Shown here in pieces: positions 6,906-31,642 of a DNA stretch of 64,000 nt. Source of the DNA: a virus (lineage: Duplodnaviria > Caudoviricetes); the IMG/VR virus record IMGVR_UViG_3300031998_000003, positions 32,001-96,000 of that record; one strand, given 5' to 3'. Position 1 is the first letter of the stretch, and each line of letters starts with the position of its first letter. The translations under genes and the position numbers were made by a program. The notes beneath the pieces are model-generated. The model ran no database searches and had not been told where the DNA came from. It was given only the letters and a program-made list of their open reading frames with translations.

Positions 6906-8093
6906 ATGATCGCAATGGCCGATCAAATCAAATATAACTATCCCGTTGCACAATTGGATGAAATCATTCAAAAGATAAACGACGGGATTCAACCAATGAT
7001 GACACCGGATCTTGAAGCCGAAGTGCGTCTTCGTATACGTGAGCTGCAACATCAGATCGATGATGATGGTGATTGGGATGACGAATTTCAGGAAGCGATA
7101 TCTCAGCATAAGAAAGTTATGAACAAAATCGAAGATGAGCGTCGAAAGGCTCGATCGAGAAATGTCATTGAACTTGAGCTGACAGAAGAAGAGCTTTCAG
7201 AAATTCGCGATGGATGTTCCGTGATGTATGTCCGTAATGATCCGAATTCCAAGTATAACATATCCGAAGATAAGCTTGCATCGTCTGCGGAAGAAGCTGA
7301 AATTCGCAGACGTTTGGAATCTCTGGGTAAGGTGTATTATCATGCAGAAGATTTCAAGAATGCAATGAAAATCATCACGGATGCAATTGAATATTCATTG
7401 AAACATGAGTATCCGTGGATGAGTTATCAGGAGGCTGTCGAAGCCTTCAAAGCTGGACGTATTAAATATAGCTTCGGTGATCTCCCGACATTGTTCATCG
7501 GATTTGATAAACAGATTACGGATCCGAAAACACTTGCCGGCATTGTAAGTGGAGAAATAAAGTTGGTTGATGAAGATGAAGTTAAGCCGAAGAAGAAGAA
7601 ACGTAAGAAAGCTGAAGAGATGGAAGGTGTATATGTCGATATCGATATTATCGGTGATGCCGAGCATAAAATGTATGTCGATATGCATAACGCTGGCTGG
7701 GATACTCCGATCTCACTCATGCTAAAAGCTTCGTCTACGCTTTATAATAGATATGTCATGCCTCCATCTGCAACATGGTTTGGTGATAAGAAACCGCAGA
7801 AGCCGATCGAAATTGATTGGGCTGCTCCTGGCGCAGGTGAACAATATTATGACATGCTTCATGACATCAAGCATAATCAGACAAATGAAATTGTGGCCGC
7901 ATTACAGGATGCAAATGGTCGCCAGTTGAATCAAGTAATCGGTGATTCGTTACGGCAATTCCCTGTATTGTGGAAGGGTGGACCTGAACCTGAGAAGTTT
8001 GTTCTGTCGACCAGTCTCGAGGAGAATCAGCAGGCTGTTGCAATTGAACAGAATATCTTAAATCGTATCAGGCAAAACAACCCTAATTTATAA
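6906..8093 (+). CDS. Hypothetical protein, acidic/coiled-coil with a Lys tract
   Basis: 395-aa ORF with RBS GGAGG. Confidence 0.8.
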   Translation: MIAMADQIKYNYPVAQLDEIIQKINDGIQPMMTPDLEAEVRLRIRELQHQIDDDGDWDDEFQEAISQHKKVMNKIEDERRKARSRNVIELELTEEELSEIRDGCSVMYVRNDPNSKYNISEDKLASSAEEAEIRRRLESLGKVYYHAEDFKNAMKIITDAIEYSLKHEYPWMSYQEAVEAFKAGRIKYSFGDLPTLFIGFDKQITDPKTLAGIVSGEIKLVDEDEVKPKKKKRKKAEEMEGVYVDIDIIGDAEHKMYVDMHNAGWDTPISLMLKASSTLYNRYVMPPSATWFGDKKPQKPIEIDWAAPGAGEQYYDMLHDIKHNQTNEIVAALQDANGRQLNQVIGDSLRQFPVLWKGGPEPEKFVLSTSLEENQQAVAIEQNILNRIRQNNPNL

Positions 8094-8097
8094 AATG

Positions 8098-8340
8098 CCG
8101 ACCCCACGTTCGAGTAGGTCGGGTGGTTCAGTCACCACGTCTTCAACAAACATACCTCGAACGTGACGCTCTTGGACTTAACTCCTTGGACAAGGGCACA
8201 TACCCGGGTGGGATCCCAACTCCTGCCCGGGAACTTGATATTTCCAGAACCCGTACTGAGTTTCGCGATCTCTCAGTATTGGGGCTTGCCATAGAATCGG
8301 GGGCGGTGACTGAACCACCGCCCCGACTCTTCTTTTTTTT
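8098..8340 (+). ncRNA. Unknown structured RNA (pseudoknot and complementary loops) ending in an intrinsic terminator
   Basis: GC-rich intergenic region with several perfect complementarities (see findings) and a terminal hairpin followed by a U tract. Confidence 0.55.
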
Positions 8341-8412
8341 TACCCTAAAATAAGCATAATACACGTATGCCTAGGGCTCTACAGAGCAGAGTCCGAATTT
8401 CTTCATCATTAT

Positions 8413-8450
8413 AGAAAAGGGGTGGGGCTTTCGCCCCACCCTCCCTTTCT
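8413..8450. terminator. Terminator hairpin between convergent units
   Basis: gggtggggc-tttc-gccccaccc with an A-rich left flank. Confidence 0.7.
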
Positions 8451-8451
8451 A

Positions 8452-11400
8452 TCATTTTATTTGAACTGGTGTTGTACCTGGAACTGTTGAGATGACCCAG
8501 AGATTTTCGAACTCCGGTGCAAGAATCACGTGTGTACCAGCACGAAGCATCGGCATGATACGAACAGTTGTTGTTGCATTCTGAATCTTTCCGGTTTTTG
8601 TTGTGGACAGATACAACGTAAACGGACGATCGAATGTTCCGGATGTGTAGATCTCGAAGTGATCATCGCGACGAATCACATGTAAGAATTGTGTTGCGTC
8701 AGACTGCGTCTTCAACTTTCCGTTATGTGTGATTGGAATCACACCATTCAGGATTTCCTTCTTCCATGTACGATCTAATATGTCGATCACTTGTTTGTTC
8801 GTTATTTCAATCAAGCCGAGGGTTTGTGTAGTTGCATGGAATATCGTTTGTCCATTGATGGTCGGAATATGATATAGCTCTTCATAGCTTGTCGGTTCTT
8901 CCTCATCAATTTGAACATATGATAGGATATCTGGTTCATAATCTCTGTTACCAGATGCACGTACATCTGATGCAAGATAATCGTCCAGATTTGTCTTGGT
9001 CGATTGATTGAATTGATACTTGATGGATTGATCAATGATATTTGCTTTGTATACAAGCATCGAATGATATGATCCATAAGTGTTTCCATTCAGATCAACA
9101 TACACAGGACCCTTTGGCATCAGTTCCGTATCTGAAATGTCATCCACCAGTTCGATGACTTCCAGATTGTGCAGTGATGTCATGTTTCTGAGTTGGAATG
9201 ACGTTGGTGAGAGGATAATGATATCCGGATCATCGACATATTTACCATTCACCCAGAACTCATATCTGTCACGAGTCAATGGTGTCGGAATATATCCGGT
9301 AAGATCGATGATACCATCCTGAGGAATGACATGTGATGCATAACGACACACGGAGATGTGATTCGAACGAATCGTGGACACATCTGTTGACGTTTCTGTA
9401 TCAATGACAAGTCTCTCCGAAGCACGATTCTTCAACACGTTTCCAATCGGATAGCGGACATCATGTTTCTTATCATAGTAATACGTGAATGGTGCATCCA
9501 ATGTATCACTCTTGATATCATCCGAACCATCCGAATCCAACACATACTGATTTTTCAGACGAACCTCTGAAATGTTCAGCACATCGAATGTTGGATCTTT
9601 TGGAACGAGAATGACCTGTTTGGGGATAATTTTGTATGCTACATCGCGGTGTTCCTGGTCGTGATACAGATTCACCCAATTTGTTGAACGATACTCTTCA
9701 ATGGGCTGAATCGCAAGTTCTGACACATTTAGTGTCAAGCCGCTTGCAGCCGATCCATCAACAACGACAGTCGAAATTGATTCACCAGACCAAGTTTGCG
9801 TAGCTTCGTAATCGATCGTCACCATAGCTCCATCAGGACCAAGTGGATATTCACCTGGGGTGTATCCGTCAGCAAACAAGTTCCTGACACCGAGCACGTG
9901 TCCTTCACCATCACTGATGGTTTTGAACACTTCTCTTGACAATGTAGAATCCTGAAGCATCAACCGAACATAGTTTTCACCGTATCCAGTACCGCTGTTT
10001 GCGGGAGAAGCGTTTCGTATCATGTATTTGATATCCACAAGAGGAGATGGCTGTTTGATTTCGGTTACGACAACAGATACCAAACCACCAGACATTGGTG
10101 ATGTTCCATCAGGTACAACAGTACATGTGAAGGTTCCCGTTACACCTATCGGAAGTGTTGAGGATGTGATCGTGATAACAGGATTACCTTCGTTCATAGC
10201 TGTGATACCTTCGAACATAATATTCGATGATACACCATTAAATCCTGAGACATCGTCGTTCTTAACTGATACCAGAAGAACATGGTGATTCTCTTCGAAA
10301 CCATCGATTGCAACAGGGATCGACACGTTGTAATCTTTATCAATATGATACATCGGGATCTCAACTGAATTCATTGGATTTCGTACGTAGATGTCAAAAT
10401 CTTCATAGGTCATTTCAGTACCGTTTGCAAGAATGCGCATATCGCAGAATCGAATTGGTGATCCATACTTATACTTTCCTGAACGATCAGGTCTGACAAG
10501 AAGAAAACCATTCTGTCTCGGAAAATCACTTGGTGTCGGGAATAGGTTAATCAAACGATAAGTCTCAGATTCATCGTAGTGCTTTCTTACACGGATTTTG
10601 CTGTAAAGATCTTGCGTTAAAGGTTCCTGATTTACATGCATAACCGGTTTAAACACAACCTTACATTCCATCGGACCTGGTTCGATTTCCGACCACGGAG
10701 TATTATTATCGTATACAAGATACACAAGGATCTTCTTTGAGTTAAACGTTGGGTCCGTGAATAGAATATTCAATGTACTCTTGACACGCGGTGACAGATA
10801 ATCATCGTAAACGTCATGCGCATTATCATATCCTATAACCGAATAGATGTAATCTCTTGGGGATAACCAACGTTTATTTTCCCAATCATATAGTCTAATC
10901 TGTGCTTGCCCGATAATAACATCTCGCAATGCAGTTTTTCGAACAGGAATCATCCGAGCACGACCATTATCGATGTATATCATTGCAGCATCGTATGAAT
11001 TCACATTATACCATTTCGTCGGAGTTTCCAGCTCTGTATTGTACAACTCCATGCGTTTGATAAATGCTTCCCAATATTCGATATCACGTTCAATGGCTTC
11101 GATGTGAAGTTTCAGCGCACGTTCTTTCTTTCTGTATTCACGTTGAATCTGTGTAACTGAATTAGCGGGGAGTATATATGGCGGATCGAAGTAGCTGGGA
11201 TATGCGCGTCCATCATTATATACCGACGGATTCTCTTCGTCTTGTACAACATGCTTCAGATATTTAATTTCGATAGAACCACTGGCGGTTGATGTCTGAT
11301 ACAGTGCTTCAATGTCAACAACCGCGTCGCTTTTAATACGGAAAACTGTCCACACACATTCCAAAGCCCATGATGGAACCGGTACGTCATTTTCCCAACA

Positions 11401-14400
11401 TGAACCCGGTTTAATGAAAACAGTATCACCAATCTCAGGCAACGTGTCGTCAGTATGTGACAATCTAACTCTGATTGGATCATAAAGCACCTCATCAACA
11501 ATCCATACGCGTTGACAGTCTTCGATCGAAATGTATTGATCACCAACCATTGTGCCAGGTTTGATCATAACCGTCGAGTCTTTTTCAAGCACCGGATGTA
11601 TCAGAAGATTAAGTTTTTCTTGTTGTGCAGCGAGTTCCTCTTTGAGTTCTGCAATTTTCAAGTTTGCATTGCCGATATTCTTTTGGAATGTAAGATGTTC
11701 TTGCTTCCAAACAGAATGATCGTCAGGCTCTTCTCGCAGAACAGGATACATTTCCGGAGTCGTGTAAGAATTGAAGTCATGATACAGCAAATTGATATTG
11801 GCCGAACGAGCTACATCATTAACAGCGACATCTCCGAGATACAAGAAATGATACATCGGGTTGATGGTTCCATCGATTCTGTTTGGAATCTCATCATGGA
11901 ACATCCAATTCAATCTGGTGTATACATACTCTGAATTATTCACGACATAAATCGGATCACCAGGAAGTGTGTACACATCATTCCACTCGGAAGGAATCTC
12001 GACTGTCGACGACATCTGTGGAATTGGATAATATGGTCCTTCATATTCCGTGTATTCATCCATGAAGTTCCGAATGTTATCATCAACAATCGTGCATGTG
12101 ATCGGTTCTGTCATATTGAGGTATTTTTGAATAACTGAGATGTCTGATGTGCGGAACCATGGTGCATTAAACTCATCAACCTTTGCTTCAACAAAGCCAT
12201 GTTCTGTCGAATGATCTACTGCGGTAATGATCAACGGAAATACACACAATCCATCATCGGTACATGCGTATATCGTTTGTCCCTCAAAGTAACCACTACC
12301 GAGGGAATTCATATACCCGTTTTCAATATCGAGATGCATCACTTGACATGGTTTAAAGAACCATGTTGTTTGTGGTCTTCCACCCATATCAGTTGTTACA
12401 TAACGATTCAGTTGGTCACACTTTAGGAACAGTTTGTCATGTGGACCGGAATGTGCATTTACAACAAACTCTGAATCAGAATCCAATGGTGCAAACTTAT
12501 TTCCGGCAAGAAGTTCATAGTGAAGCTTTGCGTGCTTATCATTCAGGATTGATCCATCCGGGAGAACATCGAATGTCTCATGAATATTCTGAACTTCAAG
12601 TGGAATGGTTTGGCAACCAATGTATTGTTCGAACTGATTCATGATATCTGAAGATGTTGACACCTTCTTGAATCTGATCACGAGTCCTGTGTCAATGACG
12701 TTATTCGCTTCAGAACCGTCCTTGAAATAGAATTTCATCGTAACCGTAGTTCCATCAACTGTCAAATCATTTCCATTAAAGAACGCATAATTGCACACAG
12801 GATGCAGCGTAACGATATCACCATTGTCGTAGATCGGTCTGAATATCAATGTGACATTGGTTGAGGGAATCGCTTGCTGAGATGGGACAACAACATGCGG
12901 ATCTGTTTTCGGAATTGTCAATACTGCAAATGTTGGAGTCTCAGCACCAACGTCGACAGATCCGAAATACAACGGAAGCTCCATGTCATCGATAGCATAC
13001 ATGTCAAACATGAAGTTGTTGATTAACGTATCGAAGTATGTTTTGATCAATGGGATGAATTCATTCCACCATGCATCAAACTCGTACAGTGTTTTCAGAG
13101 TCTGTACGGTTTGTGACAATGCTGTTGGCAAATTCGGATTGAAAACACACTGTTTGAGTTCATTCAAAACAATTGCGAATTTGAAACGTTCAGTGTCATC
13201 TTTCAGGATTGGTGAAGTCATATTTGGTATCAGCATTCCATCAAAGGTGAATGTAGGACTGTTGCCTTGATCGAAGTTCCGAAGTGTTTGTGCCCAGTTA
13301 CCAGCGACTTTCAAAGACATTGGTTCATCAATGTCCTTCAAATGGATATAGACAGCTCTTGCATATCGAGTTCTGTCATAGTCATATCCGATGTTTTTAT
13401 GAACATACTGAATTTCTGTTAAAGCGTCTTGTGCATATTTCTCAAGTGGAATTGAACTCGATGAAACTTTACGAGCCGCATCAATCACATTTTTGATGTC
13501 TGTGAACAATTTCATCAGACCTGTCGAAGATGTTTTCTTAAACCAGTTGATGAACAGTTGTTCGGTTCCGATTGTTGAGAGGGTATTCAGCATCTTGAAT
13601 TGCATATCACCATTGTTGATATAGCTTTCAATTCTATCAGACCATTTTTCAATAATCTGAATCGCGGAATTAACCGCAAATGTCTGATCCCAAGTGATCT
13701 TATAATTCGTCTGAATGTGACTGATAATACCAGCCAACTCCGAAATGCACAATGACATCATCGAAGCTACCTGTGGATCATCGTAATAATGAATGTGTTC
13801 AATGCCATTTGTCGTAAGGTTCACAAATGAAACATAGTAATCCTTGTCAATGCCGGTATCAGAAACTAACGGAAGCGGGATGCCATCATAATATTGATTG
13901 AACATGTAGAGATATTCATTATCCGATGTCATGTGATGGATGTTATGTGCTCCATCTAATACATACGGAAATCCATTATACACAGCGAAGTCATTTCCGT
14001 CAGGGAAGACTGATATATTCTGGTCACCTGTTGAGAATATTGATGGTCCCTTTGTGATAACCGAATAATTGATGCGCTCGCTTGAGAGCTGTGGATCGAT
14101 TTTGTCAACGGTTAAATCAGCATAACGAGGATGGAACTGTCGACCTGTCAATTGTCTTAGGAAGTATGCTTGCAGTTGATCTTTGTTGTCATAAAGCTGA
14201 GAAACTGTATAGAACATGAAATTCAATGCGAATGGTGCACGGATCTCATATTCCCCAGCACCGACATTGTCGGATGAAACATTTGACATTTCATAGTTGA
14301 TGATAGAAGGATATTCCTCCAGCCAATCGCTGTCCATCTTATGATCCAGAATTCTTGACAGGATTGAAATTTGCGTTTTCACGTCATTCATCCCATACAT

Positions 14401-16413
14401 CATCTTTGAAAGTTTCATCAGACGTGATTCAACATTCCAATATTTAATGTATCCGAGATGTTCCTCCACTTCATCCATGAACTTATCAAAATCCATCAGC
14501 TGATTATCATCGAAATATCCAATGGTCTTTTCAGCAGTATTTTCCGTATCAGTATACAGAATCAGGAACTTAAAGGTTCGACCACTTTCTTTCTTATCCC
14601 GAATATAGAAAGTATTCGAAATACCTTTGAAATGATTGATTGCCGGACATGTGAACTTCCAGCATGCTTCATCGCTATCGTATCGAAATGCAATGAAGCA
14701 TTGTTCAGATATTGGTCGATTGATGCGATCTTTCAACATCGTATCTCTGGATCGATCGCTGTGATAACGCTCGGATGCATATGGATCAAAGAAGAATCCG
14801 ACACCCGGGTTACCGCCTAATGCAGCTTTGAGTCTAACGATAGTAGGCTCACTCTTAAAGGGTGCTGTAACAACATTGACAAAGTTGCTGCGATATACAT
14901 CTGGATTTGCAGTGATCAATTGCGGGAAGCTGTTGCAAATATCATTGTAGATAGCTTCATTGTACATAGCTGGTGCAGCCATAATCTTTTCGTGATATTC
15001 GCTCAATTGCTCCATAAAGTCATCGAACGCATTCTTTGACGCATTGTCGACAAAATTTGTCGTAATACATATATTCAGATATTGAGCATAAATGCTTGCA
15101 ATCTTATAGTATGCATTATCAGCAGCTTCCTTCGCTTTATCGATCATTGTAGCATATGTATCACTGTACAATTGAAAATAGGTATCGAACATTTTCTCAA
15201 AATCAGACCACAGCGCATTCAAGTTGTCTTCCATATATATTGCATCGATGAAAGGAGCCATGAGTTTGTCATCAGTTCGATCAACAGAAATTGGTGGAGT
15301 ACAGTCATTTCCAGATGAATCATTTGCCACATTGTATTCCGTGACGATATAATTTCCGTCTGGATTCGTGATGTGATTGTATTTGCCGTCATAGATATGC
15401 TTTCTTGCAATAACACTGTAGAAGTTGATCATCGGATATAAATCAGGAATCTCGAATAGATATTTTAGTGCATATATCCTGAAACGAACAGTGTTAGAAC
15501 CACCAGCGTCCATATCAGTTTTGATGCGTTCTTGAACAAATGTTACATCAAGTCCATTTGATTTCATGATACCGAAGTTTGGTGTCATTTTCACAGAATT
15601 CTTGACGGAGTTATCACATAGATGGAAAATGCATCTAGAACCAAAAAGTTCAGGATGGTCACCCAGCTTGAGCCATGACATACTGAGGTACTTTGTTTCC
15701 ATCATTGATGTGATTTCTTCTTTTGGTATATCGACATCTGCGACAAATGTATTATCGAGTTTATAGATTATGAAATCAGCCTTGTCGACATATGTCCATC
15801 CAATTTTGAACTTGAAACCCTTCTCGTCAATTGCAACCTTCCAGTCATTCGTGATAAAACCATTGACTGTGCAGAGTAACGTGAATCCAAGAATGTCAGA
15901 AATGTAACTCGACAAGAATCTGTCTGAATCCATGAAATAACCGTTTTCAGTTTCATGGAATTCATGGAGCCGTTGACGAACAAACTCGTCTCTATCTCCA
16001 AAATGCAACTGATTGAATGGTACATCGATGATATAGTAATGATCCGTTGCACCATGGAATACATGTTTTTTATCAGACGAAGAATAATGTGCAATAACCG
16101 CATGTGTATTCACAACCATGGAACTCATCGCATTCTGGAGAGACATCTTATATGTCTTGATCAGAGACTGATCCATGTCTTCGAATGTATAATTGGATTT
16201 CTCCAGCAAGTCCATTAGACGTTTGAACGCCGTGTAGTTACCGACGACATTATACGGCTGATACTTGATCAGTTCAGAGTTCAGCCCAATCAACGTTTCT
16301 AGACGTTTGTTCATCGTAACCCATTTGGTGTCGTTGTATGTCGTAACACCATCGCGGGTTCCCGTCAGATAATGATGGGACTTTAGAAACCAATCATGAT
16401 AGTTGATTTGCAT
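8452..16413 (-). CDS. Very large virion structural protein (baseplate/tail-associated), 2653 aa
   Basis: Single 8 kb ORF with RBS GAAAGGAG and a late-type promoter; internal coiled coil and SH3-like insert. Confidence 0.75.
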   Translation of the reverse strand: MQINYHDWFLKSHHYLTGTRDGVTTYNDTKWVTMNKRLETLIGLNSELIKYQPYNVVGNYTAFKRLMDLLEKSNYTFEDMDQSLIKTYKMSLQNAMSSMVVNTHAVIAHYSSSDKKHVFHGATDHYYIIDVPFNQLHFGDRDEFVRQRLHEFHETENGYFMDSDRFLSSYISDILGFTLLCTVNGFITNDWKVAIDEKGFKFKIGWTYVDKADFIIYKLDNTFVADVDIPKEEITSMMETKYLSMSWLKLGDHPELFGSRCIFHLCDNSVKNSVKMTPNFGIMKSNGLDVTFVQERIKTDMDAGGSNTVRFRIYALKYLFEIPDLYPMINFYSVIARKHIYDGKYNHITNPDGNYIVTEYNVANDSSGNDCTPPISVDRTDDKLMAPFIDAIYMEDNLNALWSDFEKMFDTYFQLYSDTYATMIDKAKEAADNAYYKIASIYAQYLNICITTNFVDNASKNAFDDFMEQLSEYHEKIMAAPAMYNEAIYNDICNSFPQLITANPDVYRSNFVNVVTAPFKSEPTIVRLKAALGGNPGVGFFFDPYASERYHSDRSRDTMLKDRINRPISEQCFIAFRYDSDEACWKFTCPAINHFKGISNTFYIRDKKESGRTFKFLILYTDTENTAEKTIGYFDDNQLMDFDKFMDEVEEHLGYIKYWNVESRLMKLSKMMYGMNDVKTQISILSRILDHKMDSDWLEEYPSIINYEMSNVSSDNVGAGEYEIRAPFALNFMFYTVSQLYDNKDQLQAYFLRQLTGRQFHPRYADLTVDKIDPQLSSERINYSVITKGPSIFSTGDQNISVFPDGNDFAVYNGFPYVLDGAHNIHHMTSDNEYLYMFNQYYDGIPLPLVSDTGIDKDYYVSFVNLTTNGIEHIHYYDDPQVASMMSLCISELAGIISHIQTNYKITWDQTFAVNSAIQIIEKWSDRIESYINNGDMQFKMLNTLSTIGTEQLFINWFKKTSSTGLMKLFTDIKNVIDAARKVSSSSIPLEKYAQDALTEIQYVHKNIGYDYDRTRYARAVYIHLKDIDEPMSLKVAGNWAQTLRNFDQGNSPTFTFDGMLIPNMTSPILKDDTERFKFAIVLNELKQCVFNPNLPTALSQTVQTLKTLYEFDAWWNEFIPLIKTYFDTLINNFMFDMYAIDDMELPLYFGSVDVGAETPTFAVLTIPKTDPHVVVPSQQAIPSTNVTLIFRPIYDNGDIVTLHPVCNYAFFNGNDLTVDGTTVTMKFYFKDGSEANNVIDTGLVIRFKKVSTSSDIMNQFEQYIGCQTIPLEVQNIHETFDVLPDGSILNDKHAKLHYELLAGNKFAPLDSDSEFVVNAHSGPHDKLFLKCDQLNRYVTTDMGGRPQTTWFFKPCQVMHLDIENGYMNSLGSGYFEGQTIYACTDDGLCVFPLIITAVDHSTEHGFVEAKVDEFNAPWFRTSDISVIQKYLNMTEPITCTIVDDNIRNFMDEYTEYEGPYYPIPQMSSTVEIPSEWNDVYTLPGDPIYVVNNSEYVYTRLNWMFHDEIPNRIDGTINPMYHFLYLGDVAVNDVARSANINLLYHDFNSYTTPEMYPVLREEPDDHSVWKQEHLTFQKNIGNANLKIAELKEELAAQQEKLNLLIHPVLEKDSTVMIKPGTMVGDQYISIEDCQRVWIVDEVLYDPIRVRLSHTDDTLPEIGDTVFIKPGSCWENDVPVPSWALECVWTVFRIKSDAVVDIEALYQTSTASGSIEIKYLKHVVQDEENPSVYNDGRAYPSYFDPPYILPANSVTQIQREYRKKERALKLHIEAIERDIEYWEAFIKRMELYNTELETPTKWYNVNSYDAAMIYIDNGRARMIPVRKTALRDVIIGQAQIRLYDWENKRWLSPRDYIYSVIGYDNAHDVYDDYLSPRVKSTLNILFTDPTFNSKKILVYLVYDNNTPWSEIEPGPMECKVVFKPVMHVNQEPLTQDLYSKIRVRKHYDESETYRLINLFPTPSDFPRQNGFLLVRPDRSGKYKYGSPIRFCDMRILANGTEMTYEDFDIYVRNPMNSVEIPMYHIDKDYNVSIPVAIDGFEENHHVLLVSVKNDDVSGFNGVSSNIMFEGITAMNEGNPVITITSSTLPIGVTGTFTCTVVPDGTSPMSGGLVSVVVTEIKQPSPLVDIKYMIRNASPANSGTGYGENYVRLMLQDSTLSREVFKTISDGEGHVLGVRNLFADGYTPGEYPLGPDGAMVTIDYEATQTWSGESISTVVVDGSAASGLTLNVSELAIQPIEEYRSTNWVNLYHDQEHRDVAYKIIPKQVILVPKDPTFDVLNISEVRLKNQYVLDSDGSDDIKSDTLDAPFTYYYDKKHDVRYPIGNVLKNRASERLVIDTETSTDVSTIRSNHISVCRYASHVIPQDGIIDLTGYIPTPLTRDRYEFWVNGKYVDDPDIIILSPTSFQLRNMTSLHNLEVIELVDDISDTELMPKGPVYVDLNGNTYGSYHSMLVYKANIIDQSIKYQFNQSTKTNLDDYLASDVRASGNRDYEPDILSYVQIDEEEPTSYEELYHIPTINGQTIFHATTQTLGLIEITNKQVIDILDRTWKKEILNGVIPITHNGKLKTQSDATQFLHVIRRDDHFEIYTSGTFDRPFTLYLSTTKTGKIQNATTTVRIMPMLRAGTHVILAPEFENLWVISTVPGTTPVQIK

Positions 16414-31020: not shown

Positions 31021-31642
31021 GATACTGGACTGGTCTTTCATTGGAAAAGAAGGGTTGATCATCCAATTCGAAGACCTAGTATCGTTTATCGGCTGGAACG
31101 CCTCTGAGTATATCAATAATGCTCAGGGGCGTCCTGTCTCTAAAACAAAGGATGAACGTCTGGTAGATTACATTAATCGATTGGACTATGATATTCCTGC
31201 GTTTGTCAAAGAGACAACTGGTGTTGATATCACCATGGAACAATTGATCAACTCGAAACACGCAACACCACCAAACGTATTATATGCGTTCAGAATGTTC
31301 AAGGCTTCCGTGGACAACGGATTGACAAACCTGATGATTCATTCAAATGTATATTCTCCGTTGTTGGAATCGTATATTAAAGAGGCTGTCAAAGAGGCCA
31401 AATATGTACACGGGGATATTGTCCCCGTGTTAAAAGACAATCCTAACTGCACGTATACGACTTCCGATCCCGCAAACATACGAAAGTGTGTAAATGTCGG
31501 AGTGCCGTTCGCTTTAACAATTTGCGACGACTTCATGTACGTTGCAGACGTCGTGACTGACGACAAATTGCTGAATCAACTCAAAGAACAGAATGTGTTT
31601 GTTCAATATACAAGCATAATGGGAAGTGGATTGATTCGGTAG
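30971..31642 (+). CDS. Hypothetical protein, possibly degenerate HAD-like fold
   Basis: ORF in the replication operon; true start probably 31004. Confidence 0.6.
   Translation: MLSPTQTRRQPMISRSEILDWSFIGKEGLIIQFEDLVSFIGWNASEYINNAQGRPVSKTKDERLVDYINRLDYDIPAFVKETTGVDITMEQLINSKHATPPNVLYAFRMFKASVDNGLTNLMIHSNVYSPLLESYIKEAVKEAKYVHGDIVPVLKDNPNCTYTTSDPANIRKCVNVGVPFALTICDDFMYVADVVTDDKLLNQLKEQNVFVQYTSIMGSGLIR

What the first reader, a model, noticed from the sequence alone, without database searches (positions are those of the whole stretch)
8098..8340. Unannotated ~240-nt RNA with a pseudoknot and perfectly complementary kissing loops
Seen: hairpin ccgacc(8098-8103)/ggtcgg(8117-8122) has a loop, cacgttcgag (8105-8114), that is perfectly complementary to ctcgaacgtg (8156-8165), giving a 10-bp pseudoknot. 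ggtggttcagtcacc (8122-8136) is the exact reverse complement of 8305-8319. Each copy also folds locally, exposing loops GTTCAGT and ACTGAAC that are complementary to each other; the second is the loop of the terminator hairpin. Further stems are cccggg/cccggg and tactgag/ctcagta. Inference: a structured ncRNA that could close via kissing loops, oligomerise hand-in-hand (as phi29 pRNA does), or switch between terminator and antiterminator. I do not recognise it as tRNA, tmRNA or a known ribozyme.
Basis: partly seen in the sequence, partly recalled or inferred. Interest (0 to 1): 0.75.

Follow-up and report, generated by a model that had tools for sequence, protein, structure and literature searches.

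The report
Conserved folded 3'UTR RNA, jumbo phage
Directly after a gene of an uncultured rumen giant phage lies a roughly 245-base RNA whose folded shape has been kept by evolution in five phage lineages and matches no catalogued family, but the eye-catching 'kissing loops' are peculiar to this one genome and probably do nothing.

Summary
The region (8094-8341, + strand) starts 4 nt after the stop codon of a 395-aa gene and ends in a canonical intrinsic terminator. The phage is a 249-kb phiKZ/AR9-like jumbo phage.

Homologous elements exist in five lineages of related metagenomic phages.
- On a model-guided alignment, 98.9% of cells pair and 19 of 39 pairs show changes on both sides. No shuffle out of 500 reached this.
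- In the 10-bp "pseudoknot" helix, 8 of 10 pairs are compensated. The P1 hairpin also covaries.
- The two helices cannot both be fully formed: 9-11 nt of a 12-13-nt loop would be paired, with linkers of 0-2 nt. I read them as a bistable or partial pseudoknot.
- G-U pairs place the RNA on the + strand.

The 15-nt (extended 25-nt) complementarity between P2 and the terminator is not conserved. It is strong only in the window and its nearest relative.

There is no Rfam match, no tRNA and no conserved ORF. The invariant, exposed loop motifs are CU-rich and complementary to the phage's Shine-Dalgarno consensus. My best guess, at modest confidence, is a 3'UTR-borne regulatory RNA that pairs with ribosome-binding sites. 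No expression data could be obtained. The same stretch was noted once before in this genome, not on other DNA.

The parts
6906..8093 (+). Upstream 395-aa gene of unknown function. Its stop codon (8091-8093) lies 4 nt before the first paired base of the RNA.
   Evidence: ORF list. No Pfam or PHROG family. 113 homologues in metagenomic phages. Always sits next to a head-tail-joining-like gene and a giant gene of about 2600 aa.
8098..8122 (+). P1 hairpin: arms 8098-8103 / 8117-8122, 13-nt loop.
   Evidence: Compensatory changes: G-C to U-A in L037 and in L013, an extra U-A pair in lineages B, D and E, and C-G to G-C in L013. Folded alone it gives -10 to -15 kcal/mol. It starts 1-4 nt after the stop codon in every lineage.
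8105..8114 (+).
   Evidence: Forms a 10-11 bp helix with the downstream strand in all five lineages, with different sequences. Cross-lineage pairing reaches only 4-7 bp for unrelated lineages. 8 of 10 pairs have changes on both sides.
8123..8138 (+). P2 hairpin: stem 8123-8126 / 8135-8138. Its loop is the one claimed to 'kiss'.
   Evidence: The stem covaries, U-A to C-G in L013. The loop varies between lineages.
8139..8155 (+). Conserved linker after P2. It begins with the invariant CGUCUUC, counting the last stem base.
   Evidence: Invariant columns in A2 and A3. In the long-range-helix state it is predicted to pair partly with the 3' arm of P1.
8156..8165 (+). 3' strand of the long-range helix.
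8168..8197 (+). P3 hairpin: stem 8168-8174 / 8191-8197. Its 16-nt loop carries the invariant ACUCCUUG (8181-8188).
   Evidence: The stem covaries. The motif is invariant in all lineages. Its predicted unpaired probability is about 1 in most lineages. It is complementary to AGGAG/AAGGAG, the commonest 5-mers upstream of start codons in this genome.
8203..8231 (+). P4 hairpin: 11 bp, with the invariant 7-nt loop UCCCAAC (8214-8220).
   Evidence: 6 of 11 pairs have changes on both sides. The loop is invariant and predicted unpaired.
8253..8279 (+). P6 hairpin: arms 8253-8260 / 8272-8279.
   Evidence: Kept with compensatory changes in lineages D and E and a C-to-U wobble in L022. Replaced by a longer hairpin in lineage C.
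8300..8341 (+). Intrinsic terminator: 9-bp GC stem 8300-8308 / 8316-8324, loop 8309-8315, U-tract to 8341.
   Evidence: Terminator scan. A strong hairpin plus a T-run of at least 8 is present in every lineage, with different stem and loop sequences. The T-run follows the stem only on the + strand.
8354..8394 (+). Two further conserved hairpins after the terminator (8354-8358/8366-8370 and 8374-8380/8388-8394). Whether they belong to the same RNA is uncertain.
   Evidence: Conserved with compensatory and G-U changes in lineages A, B, D and E; absent in C.
8419..8442 (.). Bidirectional terminator hairpin that ends the convergent 2653-aa gene (8452-16413, - strand).
   Evidence: Terminator scan on both strands. 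Conserved in all relatives, including those that lack the RNA.

Best explanation
SHOWN. 8094-8341 is a + strand structured RNA element of about 245 nt, conserved in five lineages of rumen/gut phiKZ/AR9-like jumbo phages.
- It has six covarying helices and ends in an intrinsic terminator.
- Its 5' module holds two helices that both covary but cannot both be complete. One is the local hairpin P1, placed 1-4 nt after the stop codon of the upstream gene. The other is a 10-11-bp helix between the P1 loop and a strand about 45 nt downstream.
- Three single-stranded motifs are invariant: ACUCCUUG in the P3 loop, UCCCAAC in the P4 loop, and CGUCUUC after P2.

INFERRED, about 0.7. The element is transcribed as the 3'UTR of the 212-aa/395-aa operon and ends at its own terminator. 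P1 forms first on the nascent chain, and the RNA then refolds into the more stable long-range-helix state.

INFERRED, about 0.35-0.4. The element, as 3'UTR or as a processed 3'UTR-derived small RNA, is a base-pairing regulator. Its exposed CU-rich P3 loop pairs with Shine-Dalgarno regions (AAGGAG) of phage or host mRNAs and lowers their translation. The 5' P1/long-range module and the terminator would act as protective or conformational end structures.

The confidence given for this entry refers to the functional reading. That it is a real conserved + strand structured RNA I put at about 0.9.
For: Structure:
- 98.9% of cells paired, 19 of 39 pairs with double changes, 0 of 500 shuffles as high, and slid controls of 3 or fewer.
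- An independent MAFFT/RNAalifold run gives 16 of 45 pairs with double changes.
- The long-range helix is 10-11 bp in each lineage, with lineage-specific sequence.

Strand:
- 22 G-U cells would be A-C mismatches on the other strand.
- The T-run lies only 3' of the stem on the + strand.
- z = -4.86 on the + strand against -3.1 on the - strand.

Not coding:
- The 87-codon -1 frame seen in the window is closed after 27-47 codons in most other lineages (82 in L018).
- Indels are not multiples of three.

Two states at the 5' end:
- P1 alone gives -10 to -15 kcal/mol. The first 85 nt give -20 to -32 kcal/mol with the long-range helix.
- MFE folds of nearly all full-length members use the long-range helix.

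Anti-SD reading:
- AGGAG, AAGGA and GGAGG are the top 5-mers upstream of 221 ORF starts.
- The P3-loop motif is invariant although whole RNAs are only 51-69% identical between lineages. It is predicted unpaired.
- More distant relatives (L008, L009, L011, L012) carry, at the same position, an unrelated sRNA-shaped unit of about 150 nt. It has a single-stranded CCUCC between hairpins and a long terminator.

Intrinsic terminators are used efficiently by AR9 transcription (PMC5312081). The window encodes split RNAP beta/beta'-like proteins.
Against: - Transcript ends, processing and abundance are therefore unknown.
- No convincing or conserved target emerged from a duplex scan of 247 start regions. 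The top hits were mostly short doubtful ORFs.
- The loop gives only 6 bp with the consensus SD. The second CUCCU copy is half buried in the P4 stem.
- The family is absent from relatives at 50% or less protein identity. Some of these (L002, L005, L007) have only one long hairpin plus a terminator there, so the function is dispensable or replaceable.
- Invariant loops would be explained equally well by a protein partner.
Confidence: 0.38

Rival explanations
1. A purely cis-acting 3'UTR. A stack of hairpins stabilises the operon mRNA against 3' exonucleases and insulates two convergent transcription units. It has no trans target.
For: It lies between convergent genes and is followed by further hairpins and a bidirectional terminator. 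Relatives carry other, unrelated hairpins at the same place. No target was found.
Against: Generic stabilisers do not need invariant loop sequences, or two competing covarying helices. Relatives manage with one hairpin plus a terminator.
Confidence: 0.22
2. A translation-coupled or nuclease-blocking conformational module. A ribosome terminating 1-4 nt upstream melts P1 and licenses formation of the complete long-range helix. Alternatively, the partial pseudoknot blocks a 5'-to-3' exonuclease, as xrRNAs do, and so releases a stable 3'UTR fragment.
For: The 1-4 nt spacing between stop codon and P1 holds in all five lineages, despite a recombination junction at that spot. Both helices covary yet are sterically incompatible. 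P1 is stable enough to trap the nascent RNA.
Against: There is no experimental or expression evidence. Close spacing of a stop codon and a hairpin is common in compact phage genomes. No downstream gene on the + strand could be controlled.
Confidence: 0.15
3. A protein-bound RNA (RNP scaffold, assembly or packaging RNA of the pRNA type, or decoy for a host defence or RNA-binding protein), recognised through the invariant loops.
For: Invariant loops and linker. It lies in a virion-structure gene neighbourhood, next to a head-tail-joining-like gene. This phage is reported to carry several other structured RNAs (unchecked notes).
Against: The pRNA-defining intermolecular loop complementarity is not conserved. 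No RNA-binding domain is detectable in the neighbours. The element is absent in slightly more distant relatives that keep the same structural genes.
Confidence: 0.13
4. Terminator/antiterminator or kissing-loop switch through P2-terminator pairing.
For: 15 nt perfect and 25 nt at 84% complementarity in the window, far beyond shuffles.
Against: It is not conserved. z is about 0 in lineages B, C and D, and weak in L035 and L037, whose RNA is about 95% identical to the window's. P2 pairs with the 3' arm of the terminator, which is transcribed last, so it is kinetically ill-placed to prevent terminator formation. Nothing lies downstream on the + strand to be controlled.
Confidence: 0.05
5. Not an RNA. 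Either a DNA-level element (cruciform, origin, recombination site), or a coding or recoding extension of the 395-aa gene.
For: Inverted repeats exist on both strands. The -1 frame is open for 87 codons in the window. A recombination junction lies at the gene/RNA boundary.
Against: 22 G-U cells against almost no A-C cells fit only a + strand RNA. The open frames are not conserved and indels break them. No canonical slippery heptamer lies at the stop codon.
Confidence: 0.03

Closest known systems
Base-pairing sRNAs of Gram-positive bacteria that display C/U-rich loops against Shine-Dalgarno sequences (RsaE/RoxS, hairpins of S. aureus RNAIII)
   Same: Exposed pyrimidine-rich loop motifs (CUCCUU, UCCC) complementary to the SD consensus of the system. 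Several hairpins followed by an intrinsic terminator.
   Different: No sequence or Rfam relationship. Two to three times longer. Placed directly after a stop codon as a 3'UTR. Has a bistable 5' module. No target or expression has been shown.
3'UTR-derived small RNAs (e.g. CpxQ, DapZ, SroC in enterobacteria)
   Same: Lies at the 3' end of a protein-coding operon and shares that operon's intrinsic terminator. A conserved seed-like motif sits in an otherwise faster-evolving region.
   Different: Those are usually 60-120 nt with a single-stranded seed. Here there are about 245 nt and seven helices. Processing site or internal promoter is unknown.
phi29-family prohead/packaging RNA (pRNA, Rfam RF00044)
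   Same: A phage-encoded structured RNA of similar size. In this one genome two loops are mutually complementary.
   Different: In pRNA the intermolecular loop pairing is maintained by covariation across relatives. Here it is not. No Rfam hit even at E up to 10. Different genomic setting and phage type.
H-type pseudoknots and exoribonuclease-resistant RNAs (xrRNA) of viral 3'UTRs
   Same: A hairpin whose apical loop pairs with a downstream single strand, located at the start of a viral 3'UTR.
   Different: The loop helix is 9-11 bp within a 12-13-nt loop, too long to coexist with an intact P1. Known pseudoknots of this topology have loop helices of about 3-7 bp. No nuclease resistance has been tested.
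Riboswitch-type expression platforms (mutually exclusive helices)
   Same: Two alternative helices sharing a strand, both kept by covariation.
   Different: It lies in a 3'UTR with no downstream gene. The competing helices are not the terminator and an antiterminator. No ligand-binding aptamer is recognised.

Membership tests
Any Rfam 15 family (4227 models) | Covariance-model score at or above the family's gathering threshold | tested here: not met
   0 hits in the window at gathering thresholds. Within 8094-8341 at E up to 10 there are only two far sub-threshold matches, BjrC68 (13 bits against 39) and mir-627 (15 against 86). A Termite-leu match (21.6 bits against 51) overlaps only the U-tract end.
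tRNA / tmRNA | ARAGORN detection of a cloverleaf or tmRNA | tested here: not met
   0 genes in the window.
phi29-type pRNA | Match to the family model | tested here: not met
   No RF00044 hit at E up to 10.
   Loop-loop pairing is 5-7 nt in the window, 3 nt in L022 and 2-3 nt in all other members. Duplex z is about 0 in lineages B, C and D.
Intrinsic (factor-independent) terminator | GC-rich stem-loop directly followed by a U-tract on the transcribed strand | tested here: met
   9-bp stem with 8 GC pairs, a 7-nt loop and a T-run ending at 8341. Equivalent hairpin plus T8-10 in all lineages.
H-type pseudoknot | Two helices of crossing topology, each supported by covariation | tested here: met
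   P1 and the loop-to-downstream helix both carry compensatory changes.
H-type pseudoknot | Linker lengths that let both helices exist at once | tested here: not met
   Linkers are 0-2 nt and 1-2 nt around a 9-11-bp loop helix. By the established geometry of A-form helices, one full turn (about 28 A) cannot be spanned by these linkers. At most about 6-7 bp can coexist with P1. This is an inference from known geometry; no 3D modelling was done.
Anti-SD base-pairing sRNA | Accessible motif complementary to the SD consensus of the system | tested here: met
   Invariant ACUCCUUG in the P3 loop with unpaired probability about 1. The genome's RBS consensus contains AAGGAG.
Anti-SD base-pairing sRNA | Identifiable, conserved mRNA target with extended pairing | tested here: inconclusive
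   A duplex scan of 247 start regions gave no credible outlier on a real gene. Target conservation could not be examined because relatives are held only as short loci.
3'UTR-derived sRNA / expressed ncRNA | Transcript with defined 5' and 3' ends | not testable with these tools

The most novel reading that the evidence does not exclude
The 5' module is a translation-sensing RNA switch.
- P1 is held 1-4 nt behind the stop codon, so it lies inside the mRNA channel of every terminating ribosome.
- Melting P1 frees its loop to zip up the full 10-11-bp long-range helix. This state is topologically hindered while P1 is closed.
- The first round of translation would therefore convert the 3'UTR irreversibly into its active or stable fold. 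That fold could be the anti-SD regulator, or a nuclease-resistant fragment.

This would be a new way for a virus to couple a regulatory RNA's activity to translation of the gene it trails.
Probability: 0.12. Interest if true: 0.8.

Novelty: new variant of a known kind. Interest (0 to 1): 0.5.

Why it matters
- It adds a well-supported, uncatalogued structured RNA family to a group of uncultivated rumen jumbo phages that transcribe with their own RNA polymerases. Earlier notes of this scan, unchecked here, say these phages carry several other folded RNAs, some with anti-SD loops.
- If the anti-SD reading holds, giant phages would be using a set of small RNAs to tune translation of their own or host genes.
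- Two mutually exclusive helices, both kept by covariation and placed right behind a stop codon, are a rare and testable signature of an RNA that must change shape during its life.
- The comparison also gives a caution. The most striking single-sequence feature, a perfect 15-nt loop complementarity, is not conserved.

Tried and rejected
- **Rfam and tRNA scans.** Rfam at gathering and at E up to 10, and ARAGORN, found nothing.
- **Phage records.** blastn of the region against 50,697 phage records gave no match.
- **Collection scans.** The close-relative protein scan of IMG/VR found nothing. Two DNA-pattern scans of IMG/VR also found nothing.
- **Covariance model.** R1, built on the 5' domain, found no member in the distant relatives L002-L012, L025 and L026 and no paralogue in the 249-kb genome. 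The only other hit was a 30-nt P2-like match at E 0.025.
- **Coding or recoding extension.** Rejected, because the frames are not conserved.
- **Promoters.** The AR9 late-promoter consensus AACA-N6-T-A/G (PMC5312081) is not enriched in this genome: 191 and 195 sites per strand against about 185 expected. It is absent in front of the RNA. De novo k-mer and gapped-motif searches recovered only SD motifs and an AT-rich early-type motif. An own promoter could be neither shown nor excluded.
- **Target prediction.** RNAduplex against all start regions gave no credible target.
- **The 395-aa neighbour.** No family. The AlphaFold model is poor (pTM 0.29), and the Atlas gave only TM values below 0.35. 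I therefore ran no fold search.
- **CsrA-type GGA motifs in P3.** Not conserved in lineages C and E.
- **Closing helix.** A helix between the 5' arm of P1 and the segment after P6 appears in some MFE folds, but not consistently.

Full report
**Setting.** The window is bases 32001-96000 of a 248,669-bp IMG/VR virus record.
- It encodes split RNA-polymerase beta- and beta'-like proteins and a family-B DNA polymerase. It is therefore a phiKZ/AR9-like jumbo phage.
- Its genes use strong Shine-Dalgarno sites. AGGAG, AAGGA and GGAGG are the commonest 5-mers upstream of 221 ORF starts.
- The finding lies in a 358-nt gap between two convergent genes. One is a 395-aa gene (6906-8093, +) with no Pfam or PHROG family. 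The other is a 2653-aa gene (8452-16413, -).
- Relatives come from rumen and gut metagenomes. They keep the same neighbourhood: a head-tail-joining-like gene, a 212-aa gene, the 395-aa gene and the giant gene.

**Observation.**
- The 10-nt loop-to-downstream complementarity and the 15-nt P2/terminator complementarity both exceed chance. In 300 dinucleotide shuffles the longest inverted repeat reached 10 or more only six times and never exceeded 12.
- The repeat finder extends the 15-nt match to 25 nt at 84%.
- The + strand folds at -95.9 kcal/mol, z = -4.86. The - strand gives z = -3.1.
- The last hairpin, followed by a T-run, is a textbook intrinsic terminator on the + strand only.

**Not a known RNA, not coding.**
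- Rfam gives nothing at gathering scores and only far sub-threshold noise at E up to 10. ARAGORN finds nothing.
- In the window the -1 frame stays open for 87 codons across the element. In most other lineages it closes after 27-47 codons (82 in L018), and indels of 1, 2 and 4 nt occur.
- A coding or recoding extension is therefore rejected.

**Homologues and covariation.** The 395-aa protein has 113 homologues.
- Contigs encoding proteins at 65-70% identity, and near-identical ones, carry an alignable element. There are five lineages:
  - A: window, L022, L017, L035/36, L037.
  - B: L023, L027-L034.
  - C: L013-16, L040.
  - D: L018-20, L041.
  - E: L021.
- RNAalifold on a plain MAFFT alignment finds 16 of 45 pairs with changes on both sides.
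- I built a covariance model of the 5' domain with the long-range helix and realigned all members. P1 was added as a second bracket type. Results:
  - 98.9% of 366 cells form standard pairs, against 87.1% in shuffles.
  - 19 of 39 pairs have changes on both sides, against 5.7 in shuffles and 0-3 when partners are slid by 1-3 columns.
  - None of 500 shuffles reaches any of the five measures.
  - The long-range helix has 8 of 10 pairs compensated, and P4 has 6 of 11.
- The alignment was fitted to the model for these helices, which flatters them. P1 was not in the model, and the raw alignments show the same changes.
- A direct test supports the long-range helix. The P1 loop and its own downstream strand form 10-11 bp in every lineage. 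Loops paired with the strands of unrelated lineages reach only 4-7 bp.
- P1 itself changes from G-C to U-A, in L037 within lineage A and in L013. It gains a U-A pair in B, D and E, and changes C-G to G-C in L013.
- P6 is compensated in D and E. Every lineage ends in a different strong hairpin plus T8-10.

**Strand.** 22 cells are G-U pairs, which would be A-C mismatches on the other strand. The few non-standard cells are alignment slips in P1 and one end of the long helix. Together with the terminator polarity, this makes it a + strand RNA and not a DNA structure.

**Pseudoknot or switch.**
- The P1 loop has 12-13 nt, of which 9-11 pair with the downstream strand. That leaves linkers of 0-2 and 1-2 nt.
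- A 10-11-bp A-form helix is a full turn about 28 A long. From established pseudoknot geometry, such linkers cannot bridge it while P1's closing pair is intact. At most about 6-7 bp could coexist with P1.
- All 10-11 pairs covary, so the full helix must form at some stage and P1 must then be at least partly open.
- P1 alone gives -10 to -15 kcal/mol on the first 34 nt. Once 85 nt exist, the long-range state gives -20 to -32 kcal/mol. Nearly all full-length MFE folds use it.
- I therefore read the 5' module as bistable. P1 forms first, and the exposed loop then nucleates the more stable helix.
- P1 begins 1-4 nt after the stop codon in every lineage. A terminating ribosome would have to unwind it. 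This is an inference and has not been tested.

**Kissing loops.** They are not conserved.
- Loop-loop complementarity is 5-7 nt in the window and 3 nt in L022. It is 2-3 nt elsewhere, including L035 and L037, whose RNA is about 95% identical to the window's.
- Duplex energy between the P1-3'arm/P2 segment and the terminator segment gives these z values: -6.8 (window), -4.8 (L022), -2.3 and -1.7 (L035, L037), -2.6 (E), and about 0 for B, C and D.
- Most relatives have CC in the P2 loop where the window has UUC. That single local change turns a 13-of-15 quasi-palindrome into a perfect one.
- It looks like a lineage-specific event, perhaps a templated quasi-palindrome correction. It does not look like a selected contact.
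- P2 is complementary to the 3' arm of the terminator, which is made last, so it is also poorly placed to act as an antiterminator.

**What it may do.**
- Between lineages the RNA is only 51-69% identical overall. Three single-stranded motifs are nevertheless invariant: ACUCCUUG in the P3 loop, UCCCAAC in the P4 loop with its flanks, and CGUCUUC after P2.
- The first two are predicted unpaired with probability about 1.
- ACUCCUU is complementary to AAGGAG, the core of this phage's ribosome-binding sites.
- More distant relatives lack the family. Four of them (L008, L009, L011, L012) carry at the same place an unrelated unit of about 150 nt. It has two hairpins, a single-stranded CCUCC and a long terminator, the classic shape of an anti-SD small RNA.
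- This positional analogy and the exposed invariant loop make an SD-pairing regulatory RNA my leading hypothesis, at roughly 0.35-0.4.
- Against it:
  - A duplex scan of 247 start regions found no credible target.
  - The pairing to a consensus SD is only 6 bp.
  - A protein partner would explain the invariant loops equally well.
- No expression data could be obtained. No promoter could be recognised in front of the element. Co-transcription with the upstream operon is therefore the default assumption.

**Verdict.**
- The 'structured ncRNA with a covarying loop-to-downstream helix' reading is supported.
- The kissing-loop, pRNA-like and antiterminator ideas are not supported.
- The element is a new, clade-restricted RNA family. 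Its function is unproven.
- Its most interesting real feature is the pair of mutually exclusive, covarying helices placed directly behind a stop codon.

Noticed in passing
window 8342-8451: After the RNA's terminator come two more hairpins (8354-8370 and 8374-8394), then the bidirectional terminator 8419-8442. Both hairpins are conserved with compensatory and G-U changes in lineages A, B, D and E, and the whole block is deleted in lineage C. It could be a read-through extension or a separate small element.
   Followed up: partly
window 8090-8100 versus L035 2370-2380: Recombination junction at the gene/RNA boundary. The window and L035 share only 69% nucleotide identity in the 395-aa gene, but 95% in the RNA and 92% in the 3' end of the giant gene. 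The RNA therefore travels with the downstream side, not with the gene it trails.
   Followed up: partly
L008 1424-1589; L009 4168-4328; L011 4162-4304; L012 4153-4303: Distant relatives (32-38% protein identity) have a different sRNA-shaped unit of about 150 nt at the same position. It has two hairpins, a single-stranded CCUCC stretch and a long terminator hairpin.
   Followed up: partly
L025 2665-3107; L026 2677-2948: Relatives at about 52% protein identity have 270-440-nt structured gaps here. They are unrelated in sequence to the window's RNA and carry repeated UCCUUUC-type motifs. The covariance model does not match them.
   Followed up: no
window 31535-31564 (- strand): The only other place in the 249-kb genome with a P2-like hairpin: the same AGUCA-containing loop, a compensated 4-bp stem and a following GUCU-type tail. 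Covariance-model E = 0.025. It lies antisense inside a coding region and may be chance.
   Followed up: partly
window 8090-8353 (+ strand, -1 frame of the 395-aa gene): An 87-codon open frame runs through the whole RNA in the window. It is not conserved in the other lineages, so it is probably a by-product of GC-rich stems.
   Followed up: yes
window 7840-7880: Inside the 395-aa gene there is an AT-rich stretch resembling the phage's enriched early-type motif (ATATTAT) and a sigma-70-like hexamer pair. It overlaps a conserved protein motif, so a promoter role cannot be judged.
   Followed up: no
L035 (GCA_017618395.1 contig JAFZUJ010000024.1): A 13-kb piece of a related phage is deposited inside a MAG labelled Paludibacteraceae. 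Given the phage's strong SD usage, this is more likely a binning artefact than host evidence.
   Followed up: no
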